DNA of 64,000 nt from Candidatus Levyibacteriota bacterium (GCA_963722305.1 CAVRKE010000002.1:447649-511648), one strand, 5' to 3'; counted from the stretch's first letter, positions 1 through 13,729 are shown. Translations and numbers: made by a program. The notes: a model not told the origin generated them from the letters alone.

Positions 1-905
1 TGATAGTAAATGTGTCCTTTATGCTTTTCAGGCGTTACGGACAGCCCACAATCATTACATCGCAACAATCCTCTGTAAATATATGGTAAACCAGCAAACT
101 TAAAGTGTTTTTTATTAAAACTTTCTTTTACTTTCTGCACTTGGTCAAATAAATTTTGGGTAATAATTGGTTGATATTTATGCGGATAAAATTTCTTATT
201 CCACTTCATTATTCCATAATAAAATGTATCCTTGAGGATTTTGTCAGTCCAGCCATGCGACCATTCTACGCCATACTCTTCTTTTAGCTTTTTGCGTAAT
301 AAATCCATTGAAAAACTACCCATTGCATACCATTCGTAGGCTTTTTGAACAATACGAGAAGCAAACTCGTCAACCACAATTTCTGTTTTATCCTTACCTA
401 TGGAAACACGCTTATATCCAAATGATGGTCTGCTTGGATAAGTGCCCATTCTAAGCATTTGCTCTTGTGCCCGTTTTACATTATCACTAATTGCGTCAGA
501 GTAGTATTTAGCAAGTCCAAGGCTCATGCTAAAAGCAAACTTTTCTGTGGCTGAAAGATGACTGTTAATGACTTGTCCATCTGAAACAAAATGTAACTCT
601 ATCTCGTCTTTTAGAGCCTTATTGTAGAGTGCGGGAACCCGTTTATCAAAAATGTTGCGGGATAATCTATCTACTTTGTCAAAGCAAACGGCTATTTTTT
701 CTTTTTGCTCAAGAACAAATTCAAGGATGCCATCAAAATCACTACGCAGGGTTTTATACGCACTTTCATCAAAGCTAAATTCTTTGATAATTTCAAAGCC
801 TTTATTTTGACAATACTTTTTCATCCTAGTCGTTTGAGCAGGTAACGAATTGTTCGCTTCTTTTTGTTCTTCTGTTGAAACTCTAGCTATAATTATCGCT
901 TTCAT
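1..905 (-). CDS. Large serine recombinase (resolvase/invertase catalytic domain plus recombinase and zinc-ribbon domains). Partial: the C-terminus runs off the left edge of the window.
   Basis: Reverse-strand translation from about 905 gives MKAIIIARVSTEEQ... then ...DKVDRLSRN... (serine-recombinase catalytic motifs), and later CNDCG (zinc ribbon). Not in the ORF track because it has no stop inside the window. Confidence 0.8.
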   Translation of the reverse strand, partial: MKAIIIARVSTEEQKEANNSLPAQTTRMKKYCQNKGFEIIKEFSFDESAYKTLRSDFDGILEFVLEQKEKIAVCFDKVDRLSRNIFDKRVPALYNKALKDEIELHFVSDGQVINSHLSATEKFAFSMSLGLAKYYSDAISDNVKRAQEQMLRMGTYPSRPSFGYKRVSIGKDKTEIVVDEFASRIVQKAYEWYAMGSFSMDLLRKKLKEEYGVEWSHGWTDKILKDTFYYGIMKWNKKFYPHKYQPIITQNLFDQVQKVKESFNKKHFKFAGLPYIYRGLLRCNDCGLSVTPEKHKGHIYY

Positions 906-907
906 AT

Positions 908-1636
908 TTATAAATTGCACTCTTTTTGGTAATAAGGGTTTGAAGAAACCCAACTTCTTAAATTACTCCTCACATAATTGTTCCAACATGATTGGTCTGG
1001 GTCATTTGGACATGCTTGGTCAGCGGAAACATTTAATTGCAATAAGTAATCTATAATTTGATAAGCACTATTTAAGTTCGGATTTTGACTAACCCTTAAT
1101 GTAATTGATTTCCATTCTTCTTGGTTTAAGTTAGCTAAGAAAATTACCTGAGAATTAAATGCAGCAACTTCATTTTCCAAGCAAGAAGGAGCTGGTGTTC
1201 CTTCAAGTGCTTTAAGGAAAAATGTTGCATGTCTTAATTCATGCACTAGCAACGAGCCAGTTAATATGTCATCATAATTTTTGTAAGTATCATCAACATA
1301 AATACGAATATCGTTTGCATCAGATGTGTTATCAAATGCGAAATAACCTTCCGCACCATTCATCTCGCTGTGTGGTTTATAAATTAAATGGAAACAATTT
1401 GCAAAATGTCCTTTTGGGGCTTGTGGGGAATTAGGTGCTCCAATATCTTTTCCTTCAGCTAAACTTAGCGCCCTAAGTAATTCAGGAGGATTATTATAAG
1501 GCGTTGTTCTAGTGCATAAGCCAATATCTTGCTTAGGTGTTTGATTATTAGTTGATGGAGCCTGTCCTTTGATGAAATTATATCCAAGCAATATCAGTAA
1601 AATACATATTATGATGTAAGGTAATTTATTTTTCAT
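908..1636 (-). CDS. Secreted protein with an HExxH motif (LLVHELRHA). Putative zinc metallopeptidase.
   Basis: N-terminal hydrophobic signal/anchor (LPYIIICILLILLG) and an HELRH motif. No family assignment possible by eye. Confidence 0.4.
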   Translation of the reverse strand: MKNKLPYIIICILLILLGYNFIKGQAPSTNNQTPKQDIGLCTRTTPYNNPPELLRALSLAEGKDIGAPNSPQAPKGHFANCFHLIYKPHSEMNGAEGYFAFDNTSDANDIRIYVDDTYKNYDDILTGSLLVHELRHATFFLKALEGTPAPSCLENEVAAFNSQVIFLANLNQEEWKSITLRVSQNPNLNSAYQIIDYLLQLNVSADQACPNDPDQSCWNNYVRSNLRSWVSSNPYYQKECNL

Positions 1637-1818
1637 TTATGTTTAATAAAATTGTCTAAGTTTTCCTTCTTAATCCTGTATTGTTTTCCTGCCTTATGTG
1701 ATTTTAGTTTGCCAGCTTGTATCCAACGATACACAGTAAGGTAAGCAACCTTTAACATCTTTGAGACCTCTTCAATTGAGTAATACTGGTCTTCTAGCAT
1801 ATTAGTTATATTTATCAT
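1633..1818 (-). CDS. Excisionase-family helix-turn-helix DNA-binding protein (Xis/AlpA-like).
   Basis: 61 aa containing ...LTVYRWIQAGKLKSHKAGKQYRIKKENLDNF..., the typical excisionase/MerR-type HTH pattern. Sits next to the recombinase module. Confidence 0.5.
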   Translation of the reverse strand: MINITNMLEDQYYSIEEVSKMLKVAYLTVYRWIQAGKLKSHKAGKQYRIKKENLDNFIKHK

Positions 1819-2941
1819 TGTTTATCATTTCGTCTTGAAAGTCAACTAGCTTTAATAGCTCAAAACTAGTCAGATTTTTACGAATAACATCAAAAGGGCT
1901 TTTTGTAAACGGCACTTTGACACTTTTAGCTTCCGAAAACAACCTATACCAACTTCTATTGCTGTATTTCCCAAACATTACCCGAAGCTCACGAGGAGTA
2001 ACGGCATCAAGGGCGTTTTTGAGACCAAAAAGCTGAATTATACGCTTTGTTCCCAATTTTGGATTGCTAATTATAAGGTCTGCGAGCAGGGCTTTTGGGT
2101 TAGATACTTTGTAGTCAAGTAGCTTAGGTCTTTGTGCTTCTAGTTCATCTAGATAATGCAAGAGAACCTGTTGGGATATATTTGAACTAAATAGATTTTG
2201 AAAAGTAAGTTCCTTTTCTATTTTAAGCGTCTTAAATAGTTGTCTAATTTTTTGGCGATTATTAAGCCTGACTTCCATTCTCAACACTTCTAATCTTTTC
2301 TTTTCAATAAATTTTTCAAAAAGGTTAAGTTGTAAAGCATTGTCTTTTTCTATTGCTCGCTTATCGCTTTTCTTAGCCATTTCTAAGTCTTTAATTTTAT
2401 CGTAAAAAGCTACTTCATAAGAGTTGCTATGCCATTTATAACTATGCCCGTCATTACGATAATCTGTTTGATTTATATCAAGAGCAAGCGGGATATTTGC
2501 CTCTTTAATTTTACTTATCAAGTAATGAGGCGTTGAGCCATCGGTAAGTGGTATATTTTTGGAATAATGAACTGTAGATACTGGAGCATTTATAAACAGC
2601 TCCCAAAAAACTGAAATACCCATTTCCTTTAGCTTTTTTTGTAATAATTCTGCTACCTGTTTAAAGTCTTCGTCTTTTAACTCATCAAAATTATTTCCAT
2701 AGACTAATTTGGGTAGCGATAACTCTATAGACAGGGTTGGCTCATAGCGTCCTGATGTATTATATCGTTTTGTTAAAGTCAATCTAGGCTTGTAGACACC
2801 ATTTTTCAACTCTGTTTTTGTTGGATTTTGAACAAGCATAAAATAGCCTCGTGAGGCGTTCATTTTCTCTTTTTGAAATAAGTCTAATTTATTAACTAAA
2901 AACATATTCTTATCTAGCGTTAGCTTCATCGTATCTATCAT
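1802..2941 (-). CDS. Hypothetical 379-aa protein. A replication initiation role is possible but not established.
   Basis: Long ORF with K/E-rich coiled regions. Assignment rests on position between Xis and SpoVG only. No motif recognised. Confidence 0.25.
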   Translation of the reverse strand: MIDTMKLTLDKNMFLVNKLDLFQKEKMNASRGYFMLVQNPTKTELKNGVYKPRLTLTKRYNTSGRYEPTLSIELSLPKLVYGNNFDELKDEDFKQVAELLQKKLKEMGISVFWELFINAPVSTVHYSKNIPLTDGSTPHYLISKIKEANIPLALDINQTDYRNDGHSYKWHSNSYEVAFYDKIKDLEMAKKSDKRAIEKDNALQLNLFEKFIEKKRLEVLRMEVRLNNRQKIRQLFKTLKIEKELTFQNLFSSNISQQVLLHYLDELEAQRPKLLDYKVSNPKALLADLIISNPKLGTKRIIQLFGLKNALDAVTPRELRVMFGKYSNRSWYRLFSEAKSVKVPFTKSPFDVIRKNLTSFELLKLVDFQDEMINNDKYN

Positions 2942-3206
2942 AATTTTTCATTACATCTTCAAACTTACTGATGACCTCCTTTTCTATGCTTTCCGCAAAG
3001 GATTTATTTATAGGATGAAATATATTGATATTTCTTAACCCCACTTTTTTAGTAGGATAAACGAGCCTATAACCACCTTCGGGTCTTGTTATAATGCCAA
3101 TAGACCCTAAGTAAAGATTGTTGCTTAATACAAAACTTGCAAAACCGATTAAGCCGTTATTTGGCTTAACTGGTATTATTTGTATTTCAGTTATCATGTT
3201 TTTCAT
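2910..3206 (-). CDS. spoVG: SpoVG-family protein (septation/regulatory RNA- and DNA-binding protein).
   Basis: 98 aa containing IQIIPVKPNNGLIGFASFVLSNNLYLGSIGIITRPEGGYRLVYPTKK...NIFHPINKSFAESIEKEVI. This matches the SpoVG pattern (...IHDIKVIEGENGLFIAMPS...DIAHPIN...). Confidence 0.6.
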   Translation of the reverse strand: MKNMITEIQIIPVKPNNGLIGFASFVLSNNLYLGSIGIITRPEGGYRLVYPTKKVGLRNINIFHPINKSFAESIEKEVISKFEDVMKNYDRYDEANAR

Positions 3207-3428
3207 TTGTTTTTGTTTTATTTAACCGTTGGTCAATTTGTATAAGAATGGAAAATAAATCAGTTAGTCGTTTTAGTTCGTCCGAAGGCAGAATACGCCC
3301 GTCCTCATTAGGCTGTATTTGTTTCTCGTTTATTAATTTTGTTACTTCGCTTGTTTCCATTAAGCAAAGTTTATTAAATGAGGCTCGTATCCAACTGTAT
3401 ACGCTCCGTATACGGAAAATGAAGCTAT

Positions 3429-4592
3429 TTAAAAGGTTCTTTTATAAAGCGTGTTTATTTTTGCCTGATTGAAGTCGTATTGTAAGAAGTCGGTAACGCC
3501 AATTTTAGACAAGCTATTACTAATACCCCTGCAAACCTCGTAATAAGTATTCTTTGGGTCTTTTACTTCCCCTGTTGTCGCACCTTCCAATTCGCTTATA
3601 ACCTCTGAGTAGTAAATACCTTTTGTTTTTTTCAAAAGCAATTTAAGCACGGCAAGTTTTCTCGTATCTTTTTTGAATTTTGCTTGCTTTCCGTTTATAA
3701 TAAGAAGTATAGCTTCATCATCAAAAGTAAAAGAAATAGTAGGTTTGTTAGTTTTTGTTGGTTTTTGTTGGTCATTTAACGCAAAACCACTTAACATAAT
3801 CTCTTTTGTATGATTAAAAATCCGTTGAAGATGCACTTTATACTCGCCAACATCAAACTCTTTCAAATAACGCTTAGTGTCAGTTTTATAGCTCATTACC
3901 TCATTTAATTCTTCAAAAAGCATATTAAGACCCATTGCTTCAAATACCTCTTTCTTTTTCAATTTATCATCTCTTAATTTTTCGTAATCCTTATAAAGTC
4001 CGTAAAAAGATACCAATTTATCCCAACTATGCCAAACTTTAGTAGGCAATAGTCTTTGAATGTATTTTCTTTCTTCTTCCAAGAGGTCGTAGCTTGGGGA
4101 AAAAGTCCATCGGACTATAATGCCTTGACTATCTTTATCGCCAAATTTAGACATAAAATCTTTCAGTATAGGGTCATCGGAAGGTATGCTCATAAGAGCG
4201 TGTAATATGCTTCCGTATCGTCCAGCAATTGGGCCCGCACTAGAATTGATACTGCCGTCTTCTTTTTCGTAGGCTTCAAAATGTTGTAATCCTTCTTGAA
4301 AAAAATGATTTTGTTGGAGCTTCTCGTTGTTTTTAACTTGTAGCAGGATTTTATATGCTTGTCTCATTTCTTTTTTTGCAAGCTCGCCAAGTTCCGTTTC
4401 TTTTTTAGTGTCTTTTTCTTTCAGTTTATTAAAAACTTTAATAACAGGACTTAGCCTTTCGTCTTTATCATAGATTTCAACATATTCAAATAAAGTCAAG
4501 AAAAAAGGTTTTGGTATAACCATTGGTATAGCACGGTCTACGAGGGATTGAAGTTTATCTATTAATAATTGGTATTGGTCTGTTTTTTCCAT
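3429..4592 (-). CDS. Hypothetical protein (387 aa), cargo of the element.
   Basis: Uninterrupted ORF. No recognisable motif. Confidence 0.4.
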   Translation of the reverse strand: MEKTDQYQLLIDKLQSLVDRAIPMVIPKPFFLTLFEYVEIYDKDERLSPVIKVFNKLKEKDTKKETELGELAKKEMRQAYKILLQVKNNEKLQQNHFFQEGLQHFEAYEKEDGSINSSAGPIAGRYGSILHALMSIPSDDPILKDFMSKFGDKDSQGIIVRWTFSPSYDLLEEERKYIQRLLPTKVWHSWDKLVSFYGLYKDYEKLRDDKLKKKEVFEAMGLNMLFEELNEVMSYKTDTKRYLKEFDVGEYKVHLQRIFNHTKEIMLSGFALNDQQKPTKTNKPTISFTFDDEAILLIINGKQAKFKKDTRKLAVLKLLLKKTKGIYYSEVISELEGATTGEVKDPKNTYYEVCRGISNSLSKIGVTDFLQYDFNQAKINTLYKRTF

Positions 4593-4684
4593 TTCATTAC
4601 ATCTTGAAAACAGGTCTATCCTATCAAAAAAAGGTGCTTATATAAAGTGTCATACTTGAACAAGGAGTATAATAGATTTGCTCT

Positions 4685-5128
4685 ATGGGTAAGAAAGAAC
4701 TAAAACAAGAACATCCTGCAAAATCAAACAACACGCAAAACATATTCTTCATAGCTATAATCGGGATACTTTTAGTCCTTGTAGCTTATTTCTTCGGTAA
4801 ATCTCAAACTCCTACAACATTGGATAGTAATACTAGTCCAACTATCTTTTCTACCCCTAGTCCAACCGATACACCAACCCCTGAACCAATAAAAAACACT
4901 TTTAATACGCAAGCTTGCATCAATAATGCCGACTACGTAGACCAAAGTTGTATCAACAGTTGCACTAATCAAGCAAACATTCAATTGCAAAACTGCCCAA
5001 AGGATAATGTGGATAATCTTAGAAATTGTGGAAATTCAATTGAACTATGGCATCAAAGTTGCTTGGATGATTGTCTAAGCACAGCTAAAATCGCAATCAA
5101 TAATTGCAGATTGGGTATTTCCCCATAA
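4685..5128 (+). CDS. Small secreted or membrane-anchored cysteine-rich protein with a Thr/Pro-rich linker.
   Basis: N-terminal TM helix (IFFIAIIGILLVLVAYFF), a PT-rich linker and 10 Cys in the C-terminal 80 aa. A terminator lies about 150 bp downstream. Confidence 0.45.
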   Translation: MGKKELKQEHPAKSNNTQNIFFIAIIGILLVLVAYFFGKSQTPTTLDSNTSPTIFSTPSPTDTPTPEPIKNTFNTQACINNADYVDQSCINSCTNQANIQLQNCPKDNVDNLRNCGNSIELWHQSCLDDCLSTAKIAINNCRLGISP

Positions 5129-5277
5129 ACAAAACATAAGTTTTCATTAGCTTAGATAATAATCAGGCATAAACAGGTTGTAACTGAAAAGTCTCAAAGA
5201 CCGTTTGGATATTCTGTAAGCTAAACCCAAACTCTATTTTTTGGTTACTAAACATGTTTACTAGGGGGAGCATAAAA

Positions 5278-5303
5278 GACCACCCGAAAGAGGTGGTTTT
5301 TTT
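5278..5303 (+). terminator. Rho-independent terminator (ACCACC-loop-GGTGGT followed by T7).
   Basis: Sequence aaaagACCACCcgaaagaGGTGGTttttttt. The identical sequence recurs at 7659-7684. Confidence 0.7.
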
Positions 5304-5454
5304 ATGCTCTGACAGAATATGAATCGTGCTTTAGCTCGAATCTCGAGCATATCAATGTGAGATCCTGAGCGAAGCCGAAGGACTAGTCGCGAAGCAATTA
5401 GCGCTTAATATAACCTCTTCTTTACTTCTTTCTAAATTGTGAGATGATTTAGTC

Positions 5455-6135
5455 ATGGAAGAGAAAATTAAGAAAGCCAACCCAACGCTGTATAGATATT
5501 TATTTACAGTCACCACTTTTTCAAAACTTCTAGCATTAGGTCTTTTTATCATCCTTCCCTTCTTAGGGTTTTATTTAGGAATGCACTATCAACAAAAAAT
5601 AACCACAGTTACCCCAGTTATATCGGAAGTTCAGAAAATTCCAACACCAACTCCTACTTTAATTGATACTACAAACTGGAAAATATATACAAATACTGTT
5701 GCCGGATATTCCTTAAAATATCCGTCGGGTTGGCAGCTTTTGACCGATGCCGATAACTATCCTACGAACATTATATTAACAAGCCCAGATTATCGGGGAA
5801 ATTCGCCATGGACAGGAGCTAGAATAGAACTATCAGCTTACGGCACAACAACCTCGACAAATGTTAAAGACGTACTCAATGCAGAAGTAGAATCAGGCTC
5901 CCTTAGCGCTTATAAGAATTATAAAGAACTTCAAATAAACGGGGTAAGGGCAATCCAATACGATTTTATTTTTCCTGTTAATAATGGCTTACTTTTTACC
6001 TCAACTGACGTTAGCTTTATTGAGAATAAGAGAATGTATACGTTTAGTCTATCATACTATCCAAGCATAGAACCAAAAAATAAATATTTGGCGACTTTTC
6101 AAAATATTATTTCTACTTTTAGGTTGGCCCAGTAA
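5455..6135 (+). CDS. Membrane-anchored protein with a PT-rich linker and a C-terminal globular domain. Hypothetical. Copy 1.
   Basis: 226 aa with an N-terminal TM (LLALGLFIILPFLGFYLG) and a TPTPT linker. 100% identical to the ORF at 7836-8516. Confidence 0.5.
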   Translation: MEEKIKKANPTLYRYLFTVTTFSKLLALGLFIILPFLGFYLGMHYQQKITTVTPVISEVQKIPTPTPTLIDTTNWKIYTNTVAGYSLKYPSGWQLLTDADNYPTNIILTSPDYRGNSPWTGARIELSAYGTTTSTNVKDVLNAEVESGSLSAYKNYKELQINGVRAIQYDFIFPVNNGLLFTSTDVSFIENKRMYTFSLSYYPSIEPKNKYLATFQNIISTFRLAQ

Positions 6136-6292
6136 AATCAGGATTTAATTGTAGTTTCTTTATTTCTTCCCACCTCTGCCTTAATTCCCCAATATAGATT
6201 AGATTCTGGAAGGATTCCATTGCCTTTGCGGTTATAATAATCTCAGGACTGGGGAGCAAATTAGCCTCGGAAACTTCTGATATAATCAGTTT

Positions 6293-7150
6293 ATGCAATG
6301 GATTTTGCTTACACTTCTAAATGTTTTTGGAAATGGTAGCGTAATATTCTTTACAAAATCAGCAATTAAGAATACTAAATTTGGTTATGCTGGCGTAATG
6401 TTTATTACACTATTTTTTGCTGTAGTTTTGTATCTTCCAATATTTATTTTTAGCTACATAACGCATCCTGTTATTTCATCAAGTATAGATGGTTATTATT
6501 TTCTTTTAGCCTCAATAATACTTACGATATTTAATTTTTTTATTTATTTTCATGCAATCGTTATTAACGATCTTTCAGTTTTTGGACCATTAGATAGTGC
6601 TCGTCCATTTTTCGTAATTTTGTTCTCGTTGCTGTTATTAGGTCAAGTTCCTACGCATTATATTGTTTTTGGATCTATCCTTATTTTTCTAGGAGCAATT
6701 ATCCTCACCTTTTCTAAAAAATTTCTTACAGAAGCTGGTAATTTTCATAAAACATTTTTTGTGATTTTATCAACAGGACTTTTTGGTTTTATATCAATTA
6801 TTGATAAGAAAGCACTTGCCTCCATAGATCCAATAAAATACGTGTTCTTTGTTTTGCTTAGTGTCTGTATCGCAAGCGGAATTATATATTTTAGTAAAAC
6901 AAAACATATAATATTTAAACAATTTTTATCTTTAAAATTATTGGCAATGGGTGTTTTATGGGTAATTGGCTATATTGGAATTATGAGCGCTGTAAAAATC
7001 TCAACACCAAATCAAGTTATTCCTCTTCAAATGACAAGATCCTTATACCTTTCATTTTTAGGCTTTGCTTTTTTAGGAGAAAAAGGGTATTTAAGGAAAA
7101 TTATTGCAGCCGTAGTGATGTTGATTGGAGTTTATTTTATTGTCCAATAG
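6293..7150 (+). CDS. EamA/DMT-superfamily transporter (10-TM permease).
   Basis: 285 aa, about 10 hydrophobic helices arranged as two repeated halves, as is typical for EamA. Promoter-module copy immediately upstream. Confidence 0.5.
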   Translation: MQWILLTLLNVFGNGSVIFFTKSAIKNTKFGYAGVMFITLFFAVVLYLPIFIFSYITHPVISSSIDGYYFLLASIILTIFNFFIYFHAIVINDLSVFGPLDSARPFFVILFSLLLLGQVPTHYIVFGSILIFLGAIILTFSKKFLTEAGNFHKTFFVILSTGLFGFISIIDKKALASIDPIKYVFFVLLSVCIASGIIYFSKTKHIIFKQFLSLKLLAMGVLWVIGYIGIMSAVKISTPNQVIPLQMTRSLYLSFLGFAFLGEKGYLRKIIAAVVMLIGVYFIVQ

Positions 7151-7201
7151 GTTCTAACGTCGTCTACTGCTCGGAGCAAATTAGCCTCGGAATGATATAA
7201 T
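7149..7201 (+). promoter_or_regulatory. Reference copy of the conserved promoter-proximal module: AGGTTCTAACGTCGTCtactgCTCGGAGCaaattaGCCTCggaaTGATATAAT.
   Basis: Extended -10 TGnTATAAT lies 7 nt upstream of the ATG at 7208. Related copies occur at about 6241-6290, 7622-7650, 8622-8670, 13109-13165, 17330-17413, 18301-18345, 21698-21790, 23829-23888, 14945-15030 and 21079-21140. Confidence 0.55.
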
Positions 7202-7207: not shown

Positions 7208-7621
7208 ATGAAATTATCTTCTAATGTAAAATCCTTTCCTAAATTCTTTTCAAGATTATTTCTAACAAAAAACATTGGTGGCATTACTCTTTCTCCCAAT
7301 ATTTTTTTAAAATATGAAATACTTGCAGATTTACAAAAGGAAAATCAAAATCCTAAATACATTGCCTTATTAAATCATGAGCAGGAACATCTTAAAAGAC
7401 AAAGGGAAATGGGTTCAGTAAAGTTTTTTATTAAATATGCTTTATTTCCAAGATTTAGATTTAGAGAAGAAATAATTGCAAACAAAAAGACCGCAAAAGT
7501 CTTAAAAGAGCATGGTATTCCATTTGACTCTAATTTATATGCAAAGTATTTGTCAGGACCAATGTATTTTTGGTGTGTTTCTTATAAGGAAGCAAAGAAA
7601 GAATTAGATAAGTTGGTGTAG
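7208..7621 (+). CDS. Hypothetical protein (137 aa) with an HEQEH motif. Possible small metallo-hydrolase.
   Basis: ...ALLNHEQEHLKRQ... No firm family call. Confidence 0.3.
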   Translation: MKLSSNVKSFPKFFSRLFLTKNIGGITLSPNIFLKYEILADLQKENQNPKYIALLNHEQEHLKRQREMGSVKFFIKYALFPRFRFREEIIANKKTAKVLKEHGIPFDSNLYAKYLSGPMYFWCVSYKEAKKELDKLV

Positions 7622-7658
7622 GTAGGTTCTAACATCGTCTATCCCTCGGAGCATAAAA

Positions 7659-7684
7659 GACCACCCGAAAGAGGTGGTTTTTTT
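7659..7684 (+). terminator. Rho-independent terminator (copy 2, inside repeat copy 2).
   Basis: Identical to 5278-5303. Lies 38 bp after the stop of the 7208-7621 gene. Confidence 0.7.
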
Positions 7685-7835
7685 ATGCTCTGACAGAATA
7701 TGAATCGTGCTTTAGCTCGAATCTCGAGCATATCAATGTGAGATCCTGAGCGAAGCCGAAGGACTAGTCGCGAAGCAATTAGCGCTTAATATAACCTCTT
7801 CTTTACTTCTTTCTAAATTGTGAGATGATTTAGTC

Positions 7836-8516
7836 ATGGAAGAGAAAATTAAGAAAGCCAACCCAACGCTGTATAGATATTTATTTACAGTCACCACTTT
7901 TTCAAAACTTCTAGCATTAGGTCTTTTTATCATCCTTCCCTTCTTAGGGTTTTATTTAGGAATGCACTATCAACAAAAAATAACCACAGTTACCCCAGTT
8001 ATATCGGAAGTTCAGAAAATTCCAACACCAACTCCTACTTTAATTGATACTACAAACTGGAAAATATATACAAATACTGTTGCCGGATATTCCTTAAAAT
8101 ATCCGTCGGGTTGGCAGCTTTTGACCGATGCCGATAACTATCCTACGAACATTATATTAACAAGCCCAGATTATCGGGGAAATTCGCCATGGACAGGAGC
8201 TAGAATAGAACTATCAGCTTACGGCACAACAACCTCGACAAATGTTAAAGACGTACTCAATGCAGAAGTAGAATCAGGCTCCCTTAGCGCTTATAAGAAT
8301 TATAAAGAACTTCAAATAAACGGGGTAAGGGCAATCCAATACGATTTTATTTTTCCTGTTAATAATGGCTTACTTTTTACCTCAACTGACGTTAGCTTTA
8401 TTGAGAATAAGAGAATGTATACGTTTAGTCTATCATACTATCCAAGCATAGAACCAAAAAATAAATATTTGGCGACTTTTCAAAATATTATTTCTACTTT
8501 TAGGTTGGCCCAGTAA
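7836..8516 (+). CDS. Membrane-anchored PT-linker protein, copy 2 (identical to 5455-6135).
   Basis: 100% identity at protein and DNA level. Confidence 0.5.
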   Translation: MEEKIKKANPTLYRYLFTVTTFSKLLALGLFIILPFLGFYLGMHYQQKITTVTPVISEVQKIPTPTPTLIDTTNWKIYTNTVAGYSLKYPSGWQLLTDADNYPTNIILTSPDYRGNSPWTGARIELSAYGTTTSTNVKDVLNAEVESGSLSAYKNYKELQINGVRAIQYDFIFPVNNGLLFTSTDVSFIENKRMYTFSLSYYPSIEPKNKYLATFQNIISTFRLAQ

Positions 8517-8690
8517 AATCAGGATTTAATTGTAGTTTCTTTATTTCTTCCCACCTCTGCCTTAATTCCCCAATATAGATTAGATTCTGGAAGGATTCCA
8601 TTGCCTTTGCGGTTATAATAATCTCAGGACTGGGGAGCAAATTAGCCTCAATTATGATATAATCCTTCAACTATGGGTAGACGAGAAACG

Positions 8691-9930
8691 GATACCGTTG
8701 CAAAAACGGTCACCTGAATAGCCTCAAGAGTTCTCCAATTTCCTCAGGGTTTTGATACCGTTGCAAAAACGGTCACCTGAATAGCCTCAAGAGTTCTCCA
8801 ATTTCCTCAGGGTTTTTCATGGTCTGTTGAAGTGAAGATGTTCCATTTAACATTCTGAATTTAGCGGTACAATCGGTAAAGACTTTCAGTCTTCGTCTTA
8901 AGAAATATGCATTTAACCACATATCAGCGTGTTTAAATGATTCAAAACCTTTCAGCGGCTTTACTCTGGCTTCTAAGTGCGAGTTGTAACTTTCAATCAG
9001 ATTAGTAGTGGTGGGAATAGTTCTGTTATTCATGTAGGTGTTTAATTGCGGTAATCTCCTTTGCATGTCTAAAAGGATCGCAGAAAGTAATGAATCATGT
9101 TTGTAGGTATTATACAGTTTTGCGGCTAATGTGAGGAATTCATCTTCCGCTCTTTTGTGAGAGAACAAGTCTTCTATTCTCTGCATAAAAGGAAGATATG
9201 TTGTATCAGTTCTGACTCCAAGAGTTGTCCTGATATTCTCCTTGTAGTGATTATGGCAAAGTTGAGTAAGCACTTTAGGATATACTGACACACAGGCATC
9301 ATAGATATTGGCATTGTCATCAGAAACAATGGCCTGTAAAGGATAATTCAATAATCGTAAGGAGTTGAAAAACGTCCGGCAAGTTTGGTAGCTTTCAGAT
9401 TGGGAGAAAATATATGTTGGGATATCATGAGTAAGGTAATCAATCCCATACAAAACCGGAATCTTTCTTTCGTATCCCTTCACTTTAATATATTTTCCAT
9501 CAACCACTAATATCCCACAGAACTTACTGCAGTATTTTCTTGTTACGTCTGCTAAATGAGGGAGCTCTCCTAATTCCTTAAGGCAGCGTCTGTAGGCAGT
9601 AGATGGGTCAATTTGGTAGGTTTTTCCTAAGGAGCGGAAAGATACTCCGGTCAGATGAGCAAACAGCAATTTTCCAGTGGAGTTTTTCTTTATCCTATTT
9701 ATCTGAAACCATTTATTACACTTTCTACAAACATATTTAATTTTTCCTCTTCTTACTCCTTTACGGATAGTATTTTGGCTTTCGCAGTGGGGACATCTGT
9801 AAGATGCTGTTTTTTTTCACTCAAGGAGTATATCATCAACAAAGACAATTCTCACTGAGTGGAATTACTGCTTTTGTTTGTTAGAACAATCTAAATACCC
9901 TCTTTCAGGTGACCAAAATGCAACGGTCTC
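8691..9930 (-). mobile_element. IS1595/IS1-like insertion sequence. 27-bp imperfect terminal inverted repeats GA(T/G)ACCGTTGCA(AAAAC/TTTTG)GTCACCTGA and a 9-bp target-site duplication CGAGAAACG.
   Basis: The TSD CGAGAAACG sits at 8682-8690 and 9931-9939. Inverted repeats at 8691-8717 and 9904-9930. The left end is tandemly duplicated as two 63-bp units (8691-8753 and 8754-8816). Single transposase ORF; its stop codon lies inside the inverted repeat. Confidence 0.7.
8773..9820 (-). CDS. DDE transposase with an N-terminal zinc-ribbon (IS1595-family / IS1-related).
   Basis: The track ORF (TTG start at 9669) extends in frame upstream to a GTG at about 9820. That adds VKKTASYRCPHCESQNTIRKGVRRGKIKYVCRKCNKWFQ (CxxC...CxxC zinc ribbon). 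DDE core: VVDGKYIKVKG...AIVSDDNANI...LIESYNSHLEARVKPLKGFESF. Confidence 0.65.
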
Positions 9931-9963
9931 CGAGAAACGATAACTAGCGCTCCTGTTCCTTCT

Positions 9964-10611
9964 TTGTTTGATCCTATTCCAAAAAAATTAATACCAGATG
10001 AGGAATGGATAAGATCAACTTTTGATGGCAGCATTGGTAACGATGGAATTACTATAATCTTAAATCCAATAACCGGTGCTCCAATTAGAACAATCTTTGT
10101 TGATCTTTTCGGTCAGGCGGGCAAAATAGCTTACGAACCATTACAAAGAGCCAAATGGGCTTCGCCTAACAGGGATATTCAGCCAGGAACGCCAGAGTAT
10201 GATAAACTGAATGCGATTGCGGAAGCTGTAAGAGAAAAATGGCTAGCATGGAGAGCTGTCAATCCAAGACACGGGCCGATGAGGGAATTTAGAGTTCCCC
10301 ATTCTCCGAAACTACCCAGATTAGTTCTAATTGAGCCAGAAATCCTGCCTGAAATAAGAAAGTCCCACAGGGATGAACATAAGAAAAAAGGAAAGGCCGT
10401 GGCATCAGTCAGCATGCCAAAGGCGGTAGGGAAAAATATTTTTGAAAGTGTGGTTGCCCCCCAAATGGGATACCCAAGCTATACCAGTCCTGCGCTTATT
10501 GAACAAACTGATAGAGAAAATGCAGCTATCTATAGAAAACTTGAATTAAGACGGGCAACAATGGCAAGAAAAAGAGAAAGAATAAGAGCTAAACAACAAA
10601 AACATCCTTGA
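9964..10611 (+). CDS. Hypothetical protein (215 aa) with a basic C-terminus. Separated from its upstream promoter module by the IS1595-like insertion. Its 3' end forms the left target flank of IS110-A.
   Basis: ORF with higher GC than its surroundings. TTG start in the track, so the true start is uncertain. Confidence 0.35.
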   Translation: MFDPIPKKLIPDEEWIRSTFDGSIGNDGITIILNPITGAPIRTIFVDLFGQAGKIAYEPLQRAKWASPNRDIQPGTPEYDKLNAIAEAVREKWLAWRAVNPRHGPMREFRVPHSPKLPRLVLIEPEILPEIRKSHRDEHKKKGKAVASVSMPKAVGKNIFESVVAPQMGYPSYTSPALIEQTDRENAAIYRKLELRRATMARKRERIRAKQQKHP

Positions 10612-10618
10612 AATAAGT

Positions 10619-10724
10619 TTGTATCATTCCCCTAGAGAAAGGTATACTGAAAACGGAGAGCCAGCGAAAATAGGTTTCGGGATAGTATTTTTACTATGCC
10701 CACTGTTAGAGCAACTGGTCTTCC
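10619..10724 (+). ncRNA. Candidate bridge/seek RNA of IS110-A, 5' part (interrupted by IS3 at 10725).
   Basis: Contains CGAAAATAGGTT (compare the left target flank GAAATAAGT^T) and CTGTTAGAGC (GTTAGA is the reverse complement of the right target flank TCTAAC). Position and length match IS110-type left-end ncRNAs. Confidence 0.4.
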
Positions 10725-10778
10725 TATAATGGACCCCATAATCTGCACAGTCACCTTAGACTAAGATAGAATAGTTCT

Positions 10779-11075
10779 ATGGATCAAAAAATACGCAGAA
10801 TTCATCCACCGGCATTTAAAGCCAGAGTTGCTCTGGAGGCAATTAAGGAACAAAAAACAATTGCGGAGCTGTCAAGTATGTACGGTGTACATTCAACCCA
10901 AATAACGAAATGGAAACGCCGGGCGTTGGAGATTCTCTCGCAAGGGTTTTCAGAACATCTTATTCAACGGAAACGGGATGACCGTGAGCTGGTACAGGAA
11001 TTGTATCGGCAAATAGGAAGATTAAAAGTCGAAGTAGACTTTCTTAAAAAAAAGATGGGCATCTTCGACGAGTAG
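10779..11075 (+). CDS. IS3-family transposase OrfA (HTH plus leucine zipper).
   Basis: 98 aa: ...FKARVALEAIKEQKTIAELSSMYGVHSTQITKWKRR...LKVEVDFLKKKMGIF. Slippery TTAAAAAAAAG at about 11045-11055 near its 3' end. Confidence 0.85.
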   Translation: MDQKIRRIHPPAFKARVALEAIKEQKTIAELSSMYGVHSTQITKWKRRALEILSQGFSEHLIQRKRDDRELVQELYRQIGRLKVEVDFLKKKMGIFDE

Positions 11076-11178
11076 GGATATCCTTACTCCCGGAGAAATT
11101 GCTCTGCACATTAACAAAACAGAAAGCGTATTACCAAAGAGTATACGGGCTGATCTTCTGGATATTTCCAGATCAAGT

Positions 11179-11916
11179 TTGTACTATCAGCCAAGACCGG
11201 TTAAACCCGAGGCACTCATTTTAATGAACAGAATTGATGAGGTATATACTGCCCACCCTTTTTATGGTTCAAGACGTATGGCAAAAGAGGTTGGTGTTAA
11301 CAGAAAACAGGCACAACGCCTGATGCGTGAAATGGGCTATGAGGCATTGTATCCGAAGCCTAATTTGAGTAAACCCGATAAACAACACATGTTCTATCCG
11401 TATTTACTCAAAGGAGTAGTTGCAGGATATCCAAATCATATCTGGGGCACAGATATTACGTATATTCGGATGAAACATGGGTTTGTATATTTAACTGCCT
11501 TTCTTGATTGGTTTACCAGATTTGTTGTTTCCTGGAAGCTCTCAATTACCCTTGAAACAGACTTTTGTTTTGATGCTGCAACTGAAGCAATTGAGAAATT
11601 CGGAAGACCAACCATTATTAATGAAGATCAGGGATCACAAAATACCGATCATCTGATGACAGATCTCTGGGAAAATCACAATGTCAAAATCAGCATGGAC
11701 TCACGGGGACGGGCACTGGACAATATCTTCACCGAGAGGTTATGGAGGAGTGTTAAATATGAAGAGGTATACTTAAAAGAATACGCTACTGTTTTGGAAG
11801 CAAAAGAAAACATTGAAAACTATTTTTACTTTTACAATTATGAAAGAAAACACCAATCGCTTAATTACAGAACACCGGCTGAAATATATTTTGGAAAGGA
11901 GGAAAACTTAGTCTAA
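11179..11916 (+). CDS. IS3-family transposase OrfB (rve DDE integrase core). Expected to be expressed as an OrfAB fusion through a -1 frameshift.
   Basis: HIWGTDITYIRMKHGFVYLTAFLDWFTRFVVSW...INEDQGSQNTDH...ERLWRSVKYEEVY...YNYERKHQSLNYRTPAEIY (D,D,E triad with the K/R signature). Confidence 0.85.
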   Translation: MYYQPRPVKPEALILMNRIDEVYTAHPFYGSRRMAKEVGVNRKQAQRLMREMGYEALYPKPNLSKPDKQHMFYPYLLKGVVAGYPNHIWGTDITYIRMKHGFVYLTAFLDWFTRFVVSWKLSITLETDFCFDAATEAIEKFGRPTIINEDQGSQNTDHLMTDLWENHNVKISMDSRGRALDNIFTERLWRSVKYEEVYLKEYATVLEAKENIENYFYFYNYERKHQSLNYRTPAEIYFGKEENLV

Positions 11917-11956
11917 GTTTAGCCGTTTTACTGTGTTGACAATGGGGTCCACCTTA

Positions 11957-12108
11957 TCCCGGTAAGTAGAAAGCGATCTATTCCTGGTTGTGCTTGAAGG
12001 CACACATAACCAACAAGCATATCGTAGTACTTCCTAAGGCAAGACTTTTAAGCTCTCCTTTTCTTTCTTCTCTTTCTCTTCTTTCTTTAAGGCTTAAAAG
12101 AAAAGGAG
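11957..12108 (+). ncRNA. Candidate bridge/seek RNA of IS110-A, 3' part, together with an RBS-sequestering hairpin upstream of the transposase start.
   Basis: Contains GCGATCTATTCCTGGTTG (it mirrors the element's own right end GATTCCTGGTC). The hairpin CTCCTTTTCTTT...AAAGAAAAGGAG overlaps the AGGAGG Shine-Dalgarno. Confidence 0.4.
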
Positions 12109-13056: not shown

Positions 13057-13170
13057 GATACATCGGTAACACTTTGAGACCAGGGGTCTTGACAAAAGAT
13101 TCCTGGTCTCTAACGGCATCTATCTCTCGGAGCTGCGTAGCCTCAAAATTGCTTCTGATATAATCATATA

Positions 13171-13320
13171 ATGAAAAAACTTTTTACCTCAGAAAGAATA
13201 ATTGACTTTACTGCTTTAAACGATATTAAGAAAGATACGGAGATAACCGTTGATTATAATTACGGAAATCCAAAAGACAATAGTCCATTATGGTTTAAAG
13301 TGATTCCACCATCTAAGTAA
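13171..13320 (+). CDS. Short ORF (49 aa) that resembles the C-terminal end of a SET-domain protein (...TEITVDYNYG...). Possible gene remnant.
   Basis: Not in the ORF track because it is under 60 aa. Sits directly downstream of a promoter-module copy. Could be a fragment or spurious. Confidence 0.2.
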   Translation: MKKLFTSERIIDFTALNDIKKDTEITVDYNYGNPKDNSPLWFKVIPPSK

Positions 13321-13429
13321 AGTTTTATTGTCATATTTTGCCCCACTCGATAACTATCTTCAGAGATAGTATAATGTTAAGAATGAGAGGAGGTATAAGT
13401 AGATTTAATCAATAAGTCTATAAAACACT

Positions 13430-13627
13430 ATGAACGGAACAATTAAAACAAAAACAGATAGAGGGTTTGGATTTATTTCTCGTGAAGGAGAAGCAAAGGA
13501 TCTTTTTTTTCACTCGTCAGATTTAAGCGGTGTTACTTTCGATGAGCTCAAAGAAGGAGCAGCCGTTACGTTTGATGTTGTGGAAAATGAAAAGGGACCA
13601 AGGGCAAAAAACGTAAAACTTGCCTAA
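13430..13627 (+). CDS. Cold-shock protein (CspA family, S1-like OB fold).
   Basis: 65 aa: GTIKTKTDRGFGFISREGEAKDLFFHSSDL...FDVVENEKGPRAKNV (RNP1/RNP2 motifs). Confidence 0.85.
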   Translation: MNGTIKTKTDRGFGFISREGEAKDLFFHSSDLSGVTFDELKEGAAVTFDVVENEKGPRAKNVKLA

Positions 13628-13729
13628 TAAAATTTGCGAAGTAATATAAAGAGTCTTCAAAGCCGTCTTAAGTGCAAGTTAAACAGGTTCTAGACCTGGA
13701 ATCTTTTGTCAAGACCCCAGGCCCGAAAC

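What the first reader, a model, noticed from the sequence alone, without database searches (positions are those of the whole stretch)
1..5303. Edge of an integrative element: large serine recombinase, Xis, SpoVG-like protein and secreted HExxH protein in very AT-rich DNA
A minus-strand module reads into the window from the left. It contains a large serine recombinase (MKAIIIARVSTEEQ..., not in the ORF track), a secreted HExxH protein, an excisionase-family HTH, a 379-aa possible replication protein, a SpoVG homologue (unusual as mobile-element cargo) and a 387-aa unknown. GC is well below that of the 26-58 kb backbone. The palindrome GTATACGctcCGTATAC at about 3399-3415, in the gap before the 387-aa gene, is a candidate operator or origin. 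The right boundary (attR) should lie between about 4600 and 5270 but cannot be placed without the left end.
Basis: partly seen in the sequence, partly recalled or inferred. Interest (0 to 1): 0.5.

Follow-up and report, generated by a model that had tools for sequence, protein, structure and literature searches.

The report
tRNA-targeting serine-recombinase element of CPR bacteria
The left 5.3 kb of the window is most of a small integrated mobile element from a large family (ultra-small Patescibacteria and Dependentiae) for which I found no published description; it appears to copy itself by rolling-circle replication, inserts at the 3' end of tRNA genes using a serine recombinase, and has a recombinase gene that is only complete when the element is a circle.

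Summary
Window 1-5270 (minus strand) holds a truncated large serine recombinase (LSR), a secreted HELRH protein, an excisionase-type HTH, a 379-aa protein, a SpoVG-like protein, a 57-aa ORF and a 387-aa protein.

New results:
- **Regulator.** The 387-aa protein ends in an OmpR/PhoB-type winged helix.
- **Family.** More than 200 related loci share the small ORF, Rep and LSR. The slot before the LSR mostly carries restriction-modification genes.
- **tRNA target.** In 58 of 77 loci the LSR gene ends inside the 3' end of an opposite-strand tRNA gene, tRNA-Asn in Patescibacteria.
- **Split gene.** The last roughly 35 codons of the LSR lie at the other end of the element, at window 5270-5163. They join in frame only across attP. 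This puts the right boundary at 5267-5270.

The left end is off the window and could not be retrieved. The transfer route, the origin and the function of the tail are inferred. I found no published description of this family.

The parts
1..905 (-). Large serine recombinase, N-terminal 301 aa. The gene runs off the left edge; about 185 more codons are expected.
   Evidence: Translation. Pfam Resolvase plus Recombinase. PHROG 95 integrase at 4e-49. It is 94% identical to the LSR of L020 and 90% to that of L001 over 301 aa. Full-length relatives are 486-495 aa.
908..1636 (-). Cargo slot: 242-aa membrane-anchored or secreted protein with HELRH at residue 132 and 7 Cys.
   Evidence: ORF. Motif position. 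No family or PDB match. It occupies the position that holds restriction-modification or defence genes in related elements. The only other copy found is the identical Logan contig L008.
1633..1818 (-). 61-aa excisionase-family HTH, a candidate recombination directionality factor.
   Evidence: PF12728 HTH_17 at 1.2e-14. TIGR01764 scores 59.6 bits against a cut-off of 28.8. It is conserved at 66-84% identity directly after Rep in Patescibacteria loci.
1802..2941 (-). 379-aa rolling-circle replication initiator of the gpII (Phage_CRI) / Rep_trans superfamily.
2910..3206 (-). 98-aa SpoVG-fold protein, a core gene of the Patescibacteria branch. It overlaps the Rep start by 32 nt.
   Evidence: PF04026 scores 37.3 bits (cut-off 29.6). 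The NCBIfam SpoVG equivalog scores only 29 bits against 108. It is conserved at 57-87% identity upstream of Rep in all Patescibacteria loci.
3187..3360 (-). 57-aa protein, first gene of the core operon. Its motif L..DE..RL..LF.LLI.ID.R recurs upstream of Rep across the whole family.
   Evidence: tblastn hits in Patescibacteria loci. The same motif appears in the ORF just upstream of Rep in Dependentiae-type loci and in L075 and L080 (pattern read by eye).
3371..3413 (-). Promoter and operator of the core operon: GTATAC at 3413-3408 and 3402-3397, GGATAC at 3392-3387 (spacing 11 and 10 bp), then a -10-like TAATAA at 3376-3371.
   Evidence: Sequence. CCGTATACGG plus the following half-sites are conserved in L001, L013, L081, L113, L115 and L116 but replaced by other repeats in L004 and others. 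ATAAACTTTGCTTA and the ATG are conserved widely.
3429..4592 (-). 387-aa regulator: helical N-terminal domain that varies between elements, plus a conserved C-terminal OmpR/PhoB-type winged-helix DNA-binding domain (about residues 285-387).
4685..5128 (+). 147-aa membrane-anchored Cys-rich protein. It lies inside the element as a second, left-hand accessory slot.
   Evidence: It lies between the regulator and the element end at 5267-5270 and is present in the identical contig L008. No homologue in other elements. Other elements carry different genes here, for example a SocA_Panacea pair in L004.
5163..5270 (-). Detached 3' end of the recombinase gene. It encodes LPLVNMFSNQKIEFGFSLQNIQTVFETFQLQPVYA* and would be joined in frame to the LSR only across attP in the excised circle or in a tandem array.
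   Evidence: Translation. Homologous peptide in about 55 loci. An in-frame join at the shared core was found in most loci with both ends available, about 35 of 45. It is contiguous with an LSR in L013, L021, L059, L091 and L150. Codon-position differences are 0.37/0.26/0.53, and the other two frames are closed in 60-62 of 62 sequences.
5264..5271 (.). Attachment-site core GGGGGAGC, the complement of GCTCCCCC and the relic of a tRNA acceptor 3' strand. The element/host junction lies within GGAG at 5267-5270.
   Evidence: Alignment of left and right junctions of 14 elements plus the window. The shared core is CTCC or GCTCCCC(C), flanked by imperfect inverted arms. The host terminator hairpin follows at 5279-5297.

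Best explanation
Window 1-5270 is most of a roughly 5.9-kb integrated mobile element. It belongs to a large family found in Patescibacteria (CPR) and Dependentiae for which I found no published description.

**Anatomy (shown).**
- An OmpR-like regulator gene comes first.
- A tightly overlapping operon follows: small protein, SpoVG-fold protein, Rep, Xis-like HTH, cargo, large serine recombinase.
- The operon is driven from a promoter preceded by three GTATAC repeats.

**Integration (shown in relatives, inferred for this copy).**
- The LSR recombines at the extreme 3' end of a tRNA gene, tRNA-Asn(GTT) in CPR.
- The TGG-CTC-CCC codons of the LSR are the complement of the tRNA's ...GGGGAGCCA end.
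- The attP core therefore sits inside the LSR reading frame.
- In the chromosome the LSR ends in a few tRNA-derived codons. Its genuine last roughly 35 codons sit at the opposite end of the element (window 5270-5163).

**Life cycle (inferred).**
- The regulator activates the operon.
- The LSR, with the HTH as directionality factor where present, excises a circle.
- The circle restores the full-length LSR gene and is amplified by rolling-circle replication started by the gpII/Rep_trans-like Rep.
- The full-length LSR re-inserts the circle at a tRNA.
- Cargo is a secreted HELRH protein here and mostly restriction-modification systems elsewhere. It is what the element offers the host.

The way the element moves between cells is unknown.
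For: - **Gene content and domains:**
- **Family and synteny with variable cargo and flanks:**
- **Rep assignment:**
- **Regulator and operator:**
- **tRNA overlap:**. 58 of 77 distinct loci have it: Asn 24, His 2 and Gln 1 in CPR-like loci; Asp 10, Glu 7, Gln 6, Arg 6, Asn 1 and Pro 1 in Dependentiae-like loci.
- **Intron-bearing targets:** at least one 'no tRNA' case, L020, is a tRNA-Asn interrupted by a group I intron.
- **Junctions, core and in-frame join:**
- **Contiguous LSR plus tail in tandem or attP-like configurations:**
- **Coding signature of the tail:**
- **Cargo dominated by R-M and defence families:**
- **Independent copy:** an identical 4583-bp copy from another sample breaks at the junction repeat.
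[quoted passage not shown] The SSV type was 'so far restricted to archaea' (PMC7253208).
Against: - The left end of this copy (rest of the LSR, tRNA, other junction) is outside the window and could not be retrieved. The tRNA-Asn target and the in-frame join are extrapolated from relatives whose LSRs are 90-94% identical.
- No circular contig was found. Contiguous LSR plus tail could all come from tandem arrays.
- L041 has a stop codon between the LSR end and the tail.
- The window Rep itself gets no Pfam hit. Foldseek against PDB found nothing.
- No origin or nick site was identified.
- The tail sequences were collected by tblastn, so the pN/pS value is biased towards looking coding.
- The Xis-like HTH and SpoVG are not detected in Dependentiae-type members.
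Confidence: 0.8

Rival explanations
1. It is an integrated filamentous phage (inovirus), or a satellite of one like RS1 of CTXphi. The gpII-like Rep makes single-stranded circles that a helper phage's coat and assembly proteins package.
For: - The Rep belongs to the gpII / PF05144 superfamily typical of inoviruses.
- The element is 4-13 kb.
- Small DNA-binding proteins sit next to Rep.
- Inoviruses have been reported in CPR genomes (PMC6813254).
- RS1-type satellites carry only regulator, Rep and small proteins (my own knowledge).
Against: - No Zot/pI-type ATPase or coat-like genes appear in the window element or among the top 25 Pfam families of 115 cargo ORFs.
- No Rep relative is present in IMG/VR (2.9 M viral contigs) or in 50,697 phage records.
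- The conserved core is only small ORF, Rep and LSR.
- No helper phage is known.
Confidence: 0.1
2. It is an integrative mobilisable element. The Rep_trans-like protein acts mainly as a MOB_T-type relaxase, nicking an oriT, and the element is transferred by another element's conjugation machinery.
For: - The fold match is to Rep_trans proteins.
- MOB_T relaxases of ICEs such as ICEBs1 NicK and ICESt3 belong to that superfamily and double as replication initiators (my own knowledge).
- The element itself has no transfer genes.
Against: - No coupling protein or type IV secretion genes are seen in the element or its relatives' cargo.
- No relative is present among 72,556 plasmids.
- Conjugation systems are not a known feature of Patescibacteria (my own knowledge, not tested here).
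- The best Pfam relation is to phage gpII, not Rep_trans: 12 members against 1.
Confidence: 0.1
3. The conserved 'tail' is not part of the recombinase. It is either an independent micro-ORF or is conserved only as the DNA-binding arm (P') of the att site, and the in-frame relation is incidental.
For: - In the window the segment starts with ATG.
- L041 has a stop between the LSR and the tail.
- Stand-alone 105-110-aa ORFs made of an LSR C-terminal remnant plus tail exist away from elements.
- The first roughly 8 codons coincide with the inverted-repeat arm of attP.
Against: - In most loci the codon before the tail is TGG or another non-start codon, and the upstream DNA is unrelated host sequence.
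- Conservation extends over about 30 codons, well beyond what I would expect an LSR half-site to span (my own knowledge), with third positions most variable.
- Stop positions are conserved.
- The join is in frame in most loci, across two phyla and across different tRNA targets.
- Contiguous LSR plus tail ORFs exist.
Confidence: 0.1
4. It is a decaying, immobile relic that is simply inherited with the chromosome.
For: - This copy carries a minimal cargo.
- It sits in an IS-rich, rearranged region.
- Relics of LSR ends occur elsewhere.
Against: - All seven genes are intact and overlap as in relatives.
- An identical copy occurs in an independent sample.
- Rep identity is 63-91% and LSR identity 73-94% across different CPR classes, with unrelated flanks and cargo. 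That implies recent horizontal movement.
Confidence: 0.05

Closest known systems
SSV-type 'suicidal' integrases of archaeal viruses and plasmids, and phage Mx8 IntP
   Same: attP lies inside the integrase reading frame, the target is a tRNA gene, and integration changes or splits the integrase gene. In Mx8 only the C-terminus is replaced, which is the closest parallel. Tandem insertion restores an intact gene (PMC7253208; PMC4383910).
   Different: Those are tyrosine recombinases; this one is a large serine recombinase. Only about 35 C-terminal residues are detached, so all recognised LSR domains remain encoded in the integrated state. The repeat left by integration is 4-10 nt rather than a tRNA fragment of tens of nt.
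Large serine integrases of phages and islands (phiC31, Bxb1, A118, TP901-1, SCCmec Ccr, phiRv1)
   Same: Resolvase plus Recombinase (plus zinc ribbon in full-length relatives) architecture. Short att sites with imperfect inverted arms around a small core. A small separate protein is the likely directionality factor, and an Xis-like HTH is used by phiRv1 (my own knowledge).
   Different: The target is the 3' end of a tRNA gene. A 2014 survey said this was unknown for serine integrases. The gene spans attP, and the host-side arm outside the tRNA is not conserved between hosts.
Rolling-circle initiators: filamentous-phage gpII / CTXphi RstA (PF05144) and plasmid RepD/RepSTK1 (Rep_trans, PDB 4cwc, 4cij)
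   Different: Identity to the solved proteins is about 10%. The window protein has no direct Pfam hit and carries an extra helical C-terminal domain of about 150 aa. No relatives occur in plasmid or phage collections. The origin is not identified.
Small integrative elements with Int + Xis + Rep and defence cargo (actinomycete pSAM2-type AICEs, tycheposons, PICI-like satellites, pipolins as defence platforms)
   Same: A compact integration/replication module plus a variable slot filled with defence genes; integration at tRNA genes.
   Different: Those use tyrosine recombinases (or other systems) and different replication proteins. This family pairs an LSR with a gpII-like Rep and lives in CPR and Dependentiae. 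It has no conjugation, capsid or packaging genes.

Membership tests
Large serine recombinase (serine integrase) | N-terminal resolvase catalytic domain with the serine nucleophile | tested here: met
   PF00239 at 1.1e-18 over residues 3-154. The motif ARVSTEEQ is near the N-terminus.
Large serine recombinase (serine integrase) | Recombinase domain followed by a zinc-ribbon domain with coiled coil | tested here: inconclusive
   PF07508 at 1.7e-11 in the window fragment. The zinc-ribbon part is off the window; PF13408 is recorded (weak) in full-length relatives that are 77-90% identical.
Large serine recombinase (serine integrase) | Short att sites with a small crossover core flanked by imperfect inverted arms | tested here: met
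   Reconstructed attP of relatives is ATCAACTTTGG-CTCC-CCCTAGTAGAT, with arms matching at 8 of 11 positions. The only repeat shared by the two junctions is CTCC up to GCTCCCCC. In the window only one junction is visible, at 5264-5271.
gpII / Phage_CRI (PF05144) - Rep_trans superfamily of rolling-circle initiators | Significant match to the family profile | tested here: inconclusive
   The window protein gets no hit even at E<=1. 12 of 81 homologues hit PF05144 (best 5.8e-7). P0208, P0251, P0229 and P0248 pass the 21.7-bit cut-off over profile positions 1-216. These proteins match the window protein at E<=1e-52.
gpII / Phage_CRI (PF05144) - Rep_trans superfamily of rolling-circle initiators | Rep_trans fold | tested here: met
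gpII / Phage_CRI (PF05144) - Rep_trans superfamily of rolling-circle initiators | Catalytic tyrosine and a cognate nick site or origin | tested here: inconclusive
   Y180 is invariant in 81 sequences and lies within the PF05144-matched region. Its equivalence to the catalytic Tyr was not aligned residue by residue. No origin was found.
SpoVG | Match to the SpoVG domain, and orthology to the septation regulator | tested here: met
   The domain test is met: PF04026 scores 37.3 bits against a cut-off of 29.6. The orthology test is not met: NCBIfam equivalog NF009749 scores 29 bits against 108. It has the SpoVG fold but is not the housekeeping SpoVG.
Excisionase-family HTH (TIGR01764 / HTH_17) | Match above the curated cut-off | tested here: met
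   TIGR01764 scores 59.6 bits against 28.8, and PF12728 scores 54.8 against 27. A role as directionality factor for an LSR was not tested.
OmpR/PhoB-type transcription regulator (the 387-aa protein) | Winged-helix effector domain; receiver domain | tested here: inconclusive
Inovirus (filamentous prophage) | pI/Zot-like morphogenesis ATPase and coat proteins | tested here: not met
   No such domain appears in any ORF of the element or among the top cargo families of 115 ORFs. No Rep relative in IMG/VR or INPHARED.
Integrative conjugative element | Type IV secretion system and coupling protein genes | tested here: not met
   None in the window element or in the relatives examined.
SSV-type suicidal integrase / Mx8 IntP system | attP inside the integrase ORF, so that integration alters the gene | tested here: met
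SSV-type suicidal integrase / Mx8 IntP system | Tyrosine recombinase chemistry | tested here: not met
   The enzyme is a serine recombinase. It works like that system but is not a member.
tDNA genomic island as defined by Islander | Tyrosine integrase, and a displaced tRNA fragment marking the far end | tested here: not met
   The integrase is a serine recombinase. The displaced repeat is only 4-10 nt (GGGGGAGC in the window), and no tRNA-like fragment was found. Such detectors would miss these elements.

The most novel reading that the evidence does not exclude
The split recombinase gene is a built-in directionality switch for a serine integrase. The circle encodes the full-length enzyme, which integrates. 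The integrated copy encodes a tail-less enzyme ending in arbitrary tRNA-derived residues. That enzyme either excises on its own or with the small HTH, or is locked until a second copy restores the tail. Minimal Dependentiae-type members have only 48-200 nt between Rep and the LSR, so that slot holds no candidate directionality factor and such members might rely on the tail alone. This would be the first 'state-encoded' control of a serine integrase. It would also be the first serine integrase family dedicated to tRNA genes, and a ready-made integration tool for CPR bacteria.
Probability: 0.3. Interest if true: 0.85.

Novelty: new variant of a known kind. Interest (0 to 1): 0.68.

Why it matters
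- **Mobile DNA of poorly known lineages.** Patescibacteria and Dependentiae are ultra-small, host-dependent bacteria whose mobile DNA is little characterised. This family has more than 1000 Rep cluster representatives and often several copies per genome. It appears to be a main vehicle for restriction-modification genes in these lineages.
- **Two rules of thumb broken.** tRNA genes are usually treated as targets of tyrosine integrases only. Integrase genes spanning attP are usually treated as an archaeal or Mx8 curiosity. tRNA-fragment-based island finders would miss these elements.
- **Practical use.** A compact serine integrase with a defined attP and a universal tRNA-Asn attB could serve as an integration tool for CPR bacteria, which are hard to manipulate genetically.
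- **A testable mechanism.** The state-dependent C-terminus offers a direct test of how serine integrase directionality can be controlled.

Tried and rejected
- **Leftward extension failed.** The exact 379-aa product is not on record. The only retrievable contig with identical proteins is a 4583-bp Logan contig equal to window 689-5272. The 679-kb NCBI source contig is indexed but its DNA and accession were not returned.
- **My own error.** The first comparisons of the LSR used an out-of-frame translation and gave falsely low identities of 41-63%. The corrected values are 73-94%.
- **Sequence searches of Rep found nothing useful.** This covers PDB, Foldseek against PDB, plasmids, phages and IMG/VR. 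A weak similarity to Mg-chelatase H over residues 206-298 was dismissed as a helical-region chance match.
- **Displaced tRNA fragment in the window: none** (GGTTCGAATCC). Only the short core is duplicated.
- **Replication origin not found.**
  - Synonymous-site conservation in rep peaks only at the two gene overlaps.
  - Conserved 10-mers are limited to the rep/HTH overlap.
  - A mismatch-tolerant scan timed out.
  - The palindrome was rejected as an origin. It co-varies with the regulator's DNA-binding domain while Rep stays conserved, and only its first 10-bp unit is conserved in relatives.
- **No contig with terminal overlaps**, so no circular assembly.
- **'GGAGCA' junctions at 6253, 7173, 7644 and 8634 as further att relics.** Part of this is a repeated promoter-like block. 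The rest stays unexplained.
- **242-aa and 147-aa proteins:** no family in any library.
- **Literature:** nine searches found no description of this element family.

Full report
**1. What is in the window**

On the minus strand, reading from 5270 down to 1, there is a compact gene set.

| Window coordinates | Strand | Feature |
|---|---|---|
| 5270-5163 | - | 36-codon open segment |
| 4685-5128 | + | 147-aa membrane-anchored Cys-rich ORF |
| 4592-3429 | - | 387-aa ORF |
| 3428-3361 | - | 68-nt intergenic region |
| 3360-3187 | - | 57-aa ORF |
| 3206-2910 | - | SpoVG-like, 98 aa |
| 2941-1802 | - | 379-aa ORF |
| 1818-1633 | - | HTH_17 / excisionase-family, 61 aa |
| 1636-908 | - | 242-aa HELRH protein |
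| 905-1 | - | Large serine recombinase, 301 aa, cut by the edge |

- From the 57-aa ORF to the LSR, neighbouring genes overlap by 20, 32, 17 and 4 nt or are 2 nt apart. This is one translationally coupled operon.
- The palindrome is at 3397-3413. That is 2 nt off the stated position, and downstream rather than upstream of the 387-aa gene.
- GC of the element is 0.339, below the 25-64 kb backbone at 0.414. The next 3.7 kb of host DNA has 0.343, and 9-25 kb has 0.381 and is full of IS elements (Mutator, IS3, IS110). Composition does not mark the boundary.

**2. It is one member of a large family**

- The 379-aa protein has more than 1400 homologues in the 90%-clustered protein collection (63-100% identity among the best 120). 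Names, where given, are Levy-, Roizman- and Pacebacteria and Patescibacteria.
- It has 1056 representatives at E<1e-3 in the 50%-clustered library.
- Its relatives were retrieved with flanks: 71 loci from species-representative genomes and 152 loci from metagenomes, of which 80 were kept.
- Hosts are Patescibacteria (Levy-, Woese-, Roizman-, Pace-, Sacchari- and Peribacteria; 56-91% identity) and Dependentiae/TM6/Babeliales (49-58%). A few contigs are labelled Rickettsiales or Gastranaerophilales (39-41%).
- Some Dependentiae genomes carry two or three copies.
- In 110 loci the Rep homologue is followed on the same strand by an LSR gene, 48 to 6697 nt downstream.
- In Patescibacteria the order is: regulator with a variable N-terminus, small ORF, SpoVG-like, Rep, HTH_17, cargo, LSR.
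- Dependentiae-type members lack detectable SpoVG and HTH_17. They keep a small ORF upstream of Rep with the same L..DE..RL..LF.LLI.ID.R motif as the window's 57-aa protein.
- No relative exists in IMG/VR viral contigs, in 50,697 phage records or in 72,556 plasmids.
- My first LSR comparisons used an out-of-frame query. The correct figures are 94% identity to L020, 90% to L001 and L081, and 73-87% to most other Patescibacteria loci over 301 aa.

**3. The 379-aa protein is a rolling-circle initiator**

- It has no Pfam hit of its own. Of 81 aligned homologues, 12 hit PF05144 (gpII of filamentous phages, N-terminal domain) and one hits PF02486 (Rep_trans).
- Four divergent members pass the PF05144 cut-off over almost the whole profile.
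- An AlphaFold model from that alignment has pLDDT 90.
- Invariant residues include Y180-x-K182 and R221-x-E223-x-R225. From memory, this resembles the Y-D-K and R-x-E motifs of Rep_trans and gpII proteins. I did not align it residue by residue.
- I could not find the origin.

**4. The 387-aa protein and the 'palindrome'**

- Only the last roughly 120 residues are conserved between elements.
- The model (pLDDT 83.7) has an all-helical N-terminal domain and a C-terminal domain.
- The intergenic region upstream of the core operon reads, in element orientation, CC**GTATAC**GGAGC**GTATAC**AGTTG**GATAC**GAG, then 10 nt, then TAATAA, then the start of the 57-aa ORF.
- These are three repeats spaced 11 and 10 bp apart, ending 10 bp before a -10-like box. 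From my own knowledge, this is the geometry of pho boxes.
- In L001, L013, L081, L113, L115 and L116 the first unit CCGTATACGG is perfectly kept while the second is degenerate. In elements with a different regulator domain, such as L004, other repeats occupy the site. Rep stays conserved throughout.
- I therefore read the site as the operator of the regulator, not as the origin. This is an inference.

**5. The recombinase ends inside a tRNA gene**

- Downstream of the LSR in relatives, the sequence is the reverse complement of a tRNA. The LSR stop codon lies within it.
- ARAGORN confirms this. Of 77 distinct loci with a complete LSR 3' end, 58 have an opposite-strand tRNA whose 3' end coincides with the LSR end.

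| Group | tRNA targets (number of loci) |
|---|---|
| Patescibacteria-like | Asn(GTT) 24, His 2, Gln 1 |
| Dependentiae-like | Asp 10, Glu 7, Gln 6, Arg 6, Asn 1, Pro 1 |

- At least one 'no tRNA' case, L020, is a tRNA-Asn interrupted by a group I intron (Rfam RF00028, 85.5 bits). L010 and L022 look the same.
- The codons TGG-CTC-CCC (W-L-P) of the LSR are the complement of the tRNA's ...GGGGAGCCA end.
- The window has no tRNA. This fits the tRNA lying beyond the left edge.

**6. The other end of the element carries the rest of the recombinase gene**

- At the far end of each element, right after a 4-10-nt copy of the same core (CTCC up to TGGCTCCCCC in CPR; ATGGCGG in Dependentiae), lies a conserved segment.
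- In the frame set by the core it encodes LPLV(D/N)xF(R/K)N(R/Q)xIEFGFSLQNIQTVFETF... and stops after 30-45 codons.
- I found it in about 55 loci from both phyla.
- Joining the LSR end to this segment at the core gives an uninterrupted frame in most loci where both ends were available, about 35 of 45. The failures are mostly cases where my automatic core finder picked a wrong short match.
- In the integrated state the LSR ends instead in non-conserved tRNA-derived residues, such as ...WLPREDSNLEP*, ...WLRD* or ...WRG*.
- Across 62 distinct sequences, pairwise differences at codon positions 1, 2 and 3 are 0.37, 0.26 and 0.53. The named frame is open in 59, and one of the three exceptions is my own mis-registered window copy. 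The other two frames are closed in 60-62. The set was gathered by tblastn, so pN/pS of 0.41 is biased.
- Uninterrupted LSR-plus-tail ORFs occur where one element abuts another or in possible circular permutations: L013 (a 528-aa ORF), L021, L059, L091 and L150.
- L041 has a stop at the junction.
- Reconstructed attP shows imperfect inverted arms around the core: ATCAACTTTGG / CTCC / CCCTAGTAGAT, 8 of 11 matching. This is as expected for a serine integrase.
- The window has this segment at 5270-5163 (LPLVNMFSNQKIEFGFSLQNIQTVFETFQLQPVYA*), preceded by the core GGGGGAGC at 5264-5271.
- It is followed on the host side by a terminator hairpin at 5279-5297, plausibly the terminator of the tRNA gene before insertion.
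- The right boundary is therefore at 5267-5270, and the 147-aa gene belongs to the element.
- With about 185 missing LSR codons, the element is about 5.9 kb. That is near the small end of the family's 4.3-13.4 kb range.

**7. Cargo**

- I scanned 115 distinct ORFs from the slot between Rep/HTH and the LSR.
- The commonest families are DNA methylases (N6_N4, N6, C5, EcoRI, Eco57I/MmeI), ResIII, HNH, GmrSD, type I specificity subunits and Vsr, which are mostly restriction-modification components. The single commonest Pfam hit is Zn_Ribbon_1 (11 ORFs), and a second theme of zinc-ribbon membrane proteins with trypsin-like domains also recurs.
- The window's cargo, the HELRH protein, matches nothing and was not found in any other element. 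Its function (protease? surface or exclusion factor?) is open.

**8. How it most likely works**

Shown:
- the anatomy;
- the family;
- the tRNA-end location and split gene in relatives;
- the right junction in the window.

Inferred:
- The regulator switches on the operon.
- The LSR, with the Xis-like HTH where present, excises a circle.
- The circle carries a restored full-length LSR gene and is multiplied by Rep-initiated rolling-circle replication, perhaps assisted by the small protein and the SpoVG-fold protein.
- The full-length LSR integrates the circle at a tRNA 3' end.

Whether the tail-less enzyme is active (a switch), inactive (a lock as in SSV-type 'suicidal' integrases) or unaffected cannot be decided here. 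In vitro, fusing a directionality factor to the C-terminus of a serine integrase changes its direction (PMC5737554, listed). So a C-terminal change is a plausible control point. Cell-to-cell transfer is unknown. Options are natural transformation, a helper filamentous phage or mobilisation, and none is supported by data here.

**9. Comparison with what is known**

- The closest concepts are Mx8 IntP and SSV-type integrases: attP inside the integrase gene and a tRNA target. Those are tyrosine recombinases.
- The SSV type was described as 'so far restricted to archaea' (PMC7253208).
- Nine literature searches found no description of this family. The library does not cover everything, so prior description cannot be excluded.
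- I class it as a new variant of a known kind: an integrative, self-replicating element built from known enzyme families in a new combination, with two unusual properties.

**10. Verdict**

- The single copy in the window is incomplete, and its cargo is uninformative.
- The family it belongs to is of clear interest to mobile-DNA and CPR specialists.

Noticed in passing
window 5267-6268 and 7648-8649: Exact 1002-bp direct repeat (spacing 2381). Each copy holds a terminator hairpin and a 226-aa PsbP-like lipoprotein gene. Copy 1 starts exactly at the element/host junction core GGAG. An EamA transporter (6293-7150) and a 137-aa ORF (7208-7621) lie between the copies. An independent Logan contig (L008) ends at this repeat boundary. 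Duplication, assembly effect or recombination at the att core is undecided.
   Followed up: partly
window 7148-7178 and 7623-7653; 6253-6268, 7173-7188, 8634-8649: Two copies of TAGGTTCTAACRTCGTCTA...CTCGGAGCA end in the same GGAGCA as the att core and faintly resemble a tRNA T-arm plus acceptor end. Three copies of GGAGCAAATTAGCCTC are each followed by a TATAAT-like box in front of genes. The junctions combine two kinds of left and two kinds of right sequences around GGAGCA, as if modules had been shuffled there.
   Followed up: partly
window 8691-8816: Exact tandem duplication of a 63-nt unit. It overlaps the 3' end (C-terminal coding end) of a truncated Mutator-family transposase ORF on the minus strand (8773-9669).
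   Followed up: no
window 8773-20157: IS-rich region: a Mutator-family fragment, two IS3-type (rve) ORFs with identical domain scores (11179-11916 and 19420-20157), and three IS110-family ORFs (12109-13056, 13730-14677, 18629-19369). This explains the low GC up to about 25 kb.
   Followed up: partly
L020 13956-14170 (minus strand); probably also L010 and L022 downstream of the LSR: The tRNA-Asn(GTT) gene targeted by the element carries a group I intron in the anticodon loop (Rfam RF00028, 85.5 bits, E 4.7e-22). ARAGORN therefore reports no tRNA there.
   Followed up: partly
L161 79-408; L162 5034-5351; proteins P0271-P0279: Stand-alone ORFs of 105-110 aa consist of the last roughly 75 residues of an LSR fused to the conserved tail. 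They lie in contexts without Rep or a full LSR. They are either relics of tandem elements or a small protein in its own right.
   Followed up: partly
L013 5751-7337; L001 1-297 with 209-250: Elements sit next to another LSR gene or LSR 3' remnant on their left side, which indicates tandem accretion at the same tRNA. In L013 the left neighbour's LSR (528 aa, a different lineage) is completed by the tail of the right-hand element.
   Followed up: partly
L041 3090-3394 (minus strand): An LSR end and a tail are adjacent but separated by an in-frame stop (…LLWRP*GDAFSNHEIEFGF…). Here the LSR lies on the strand opposite to Rep. This is a counter-example or a decayed copy.
   Followed up: no
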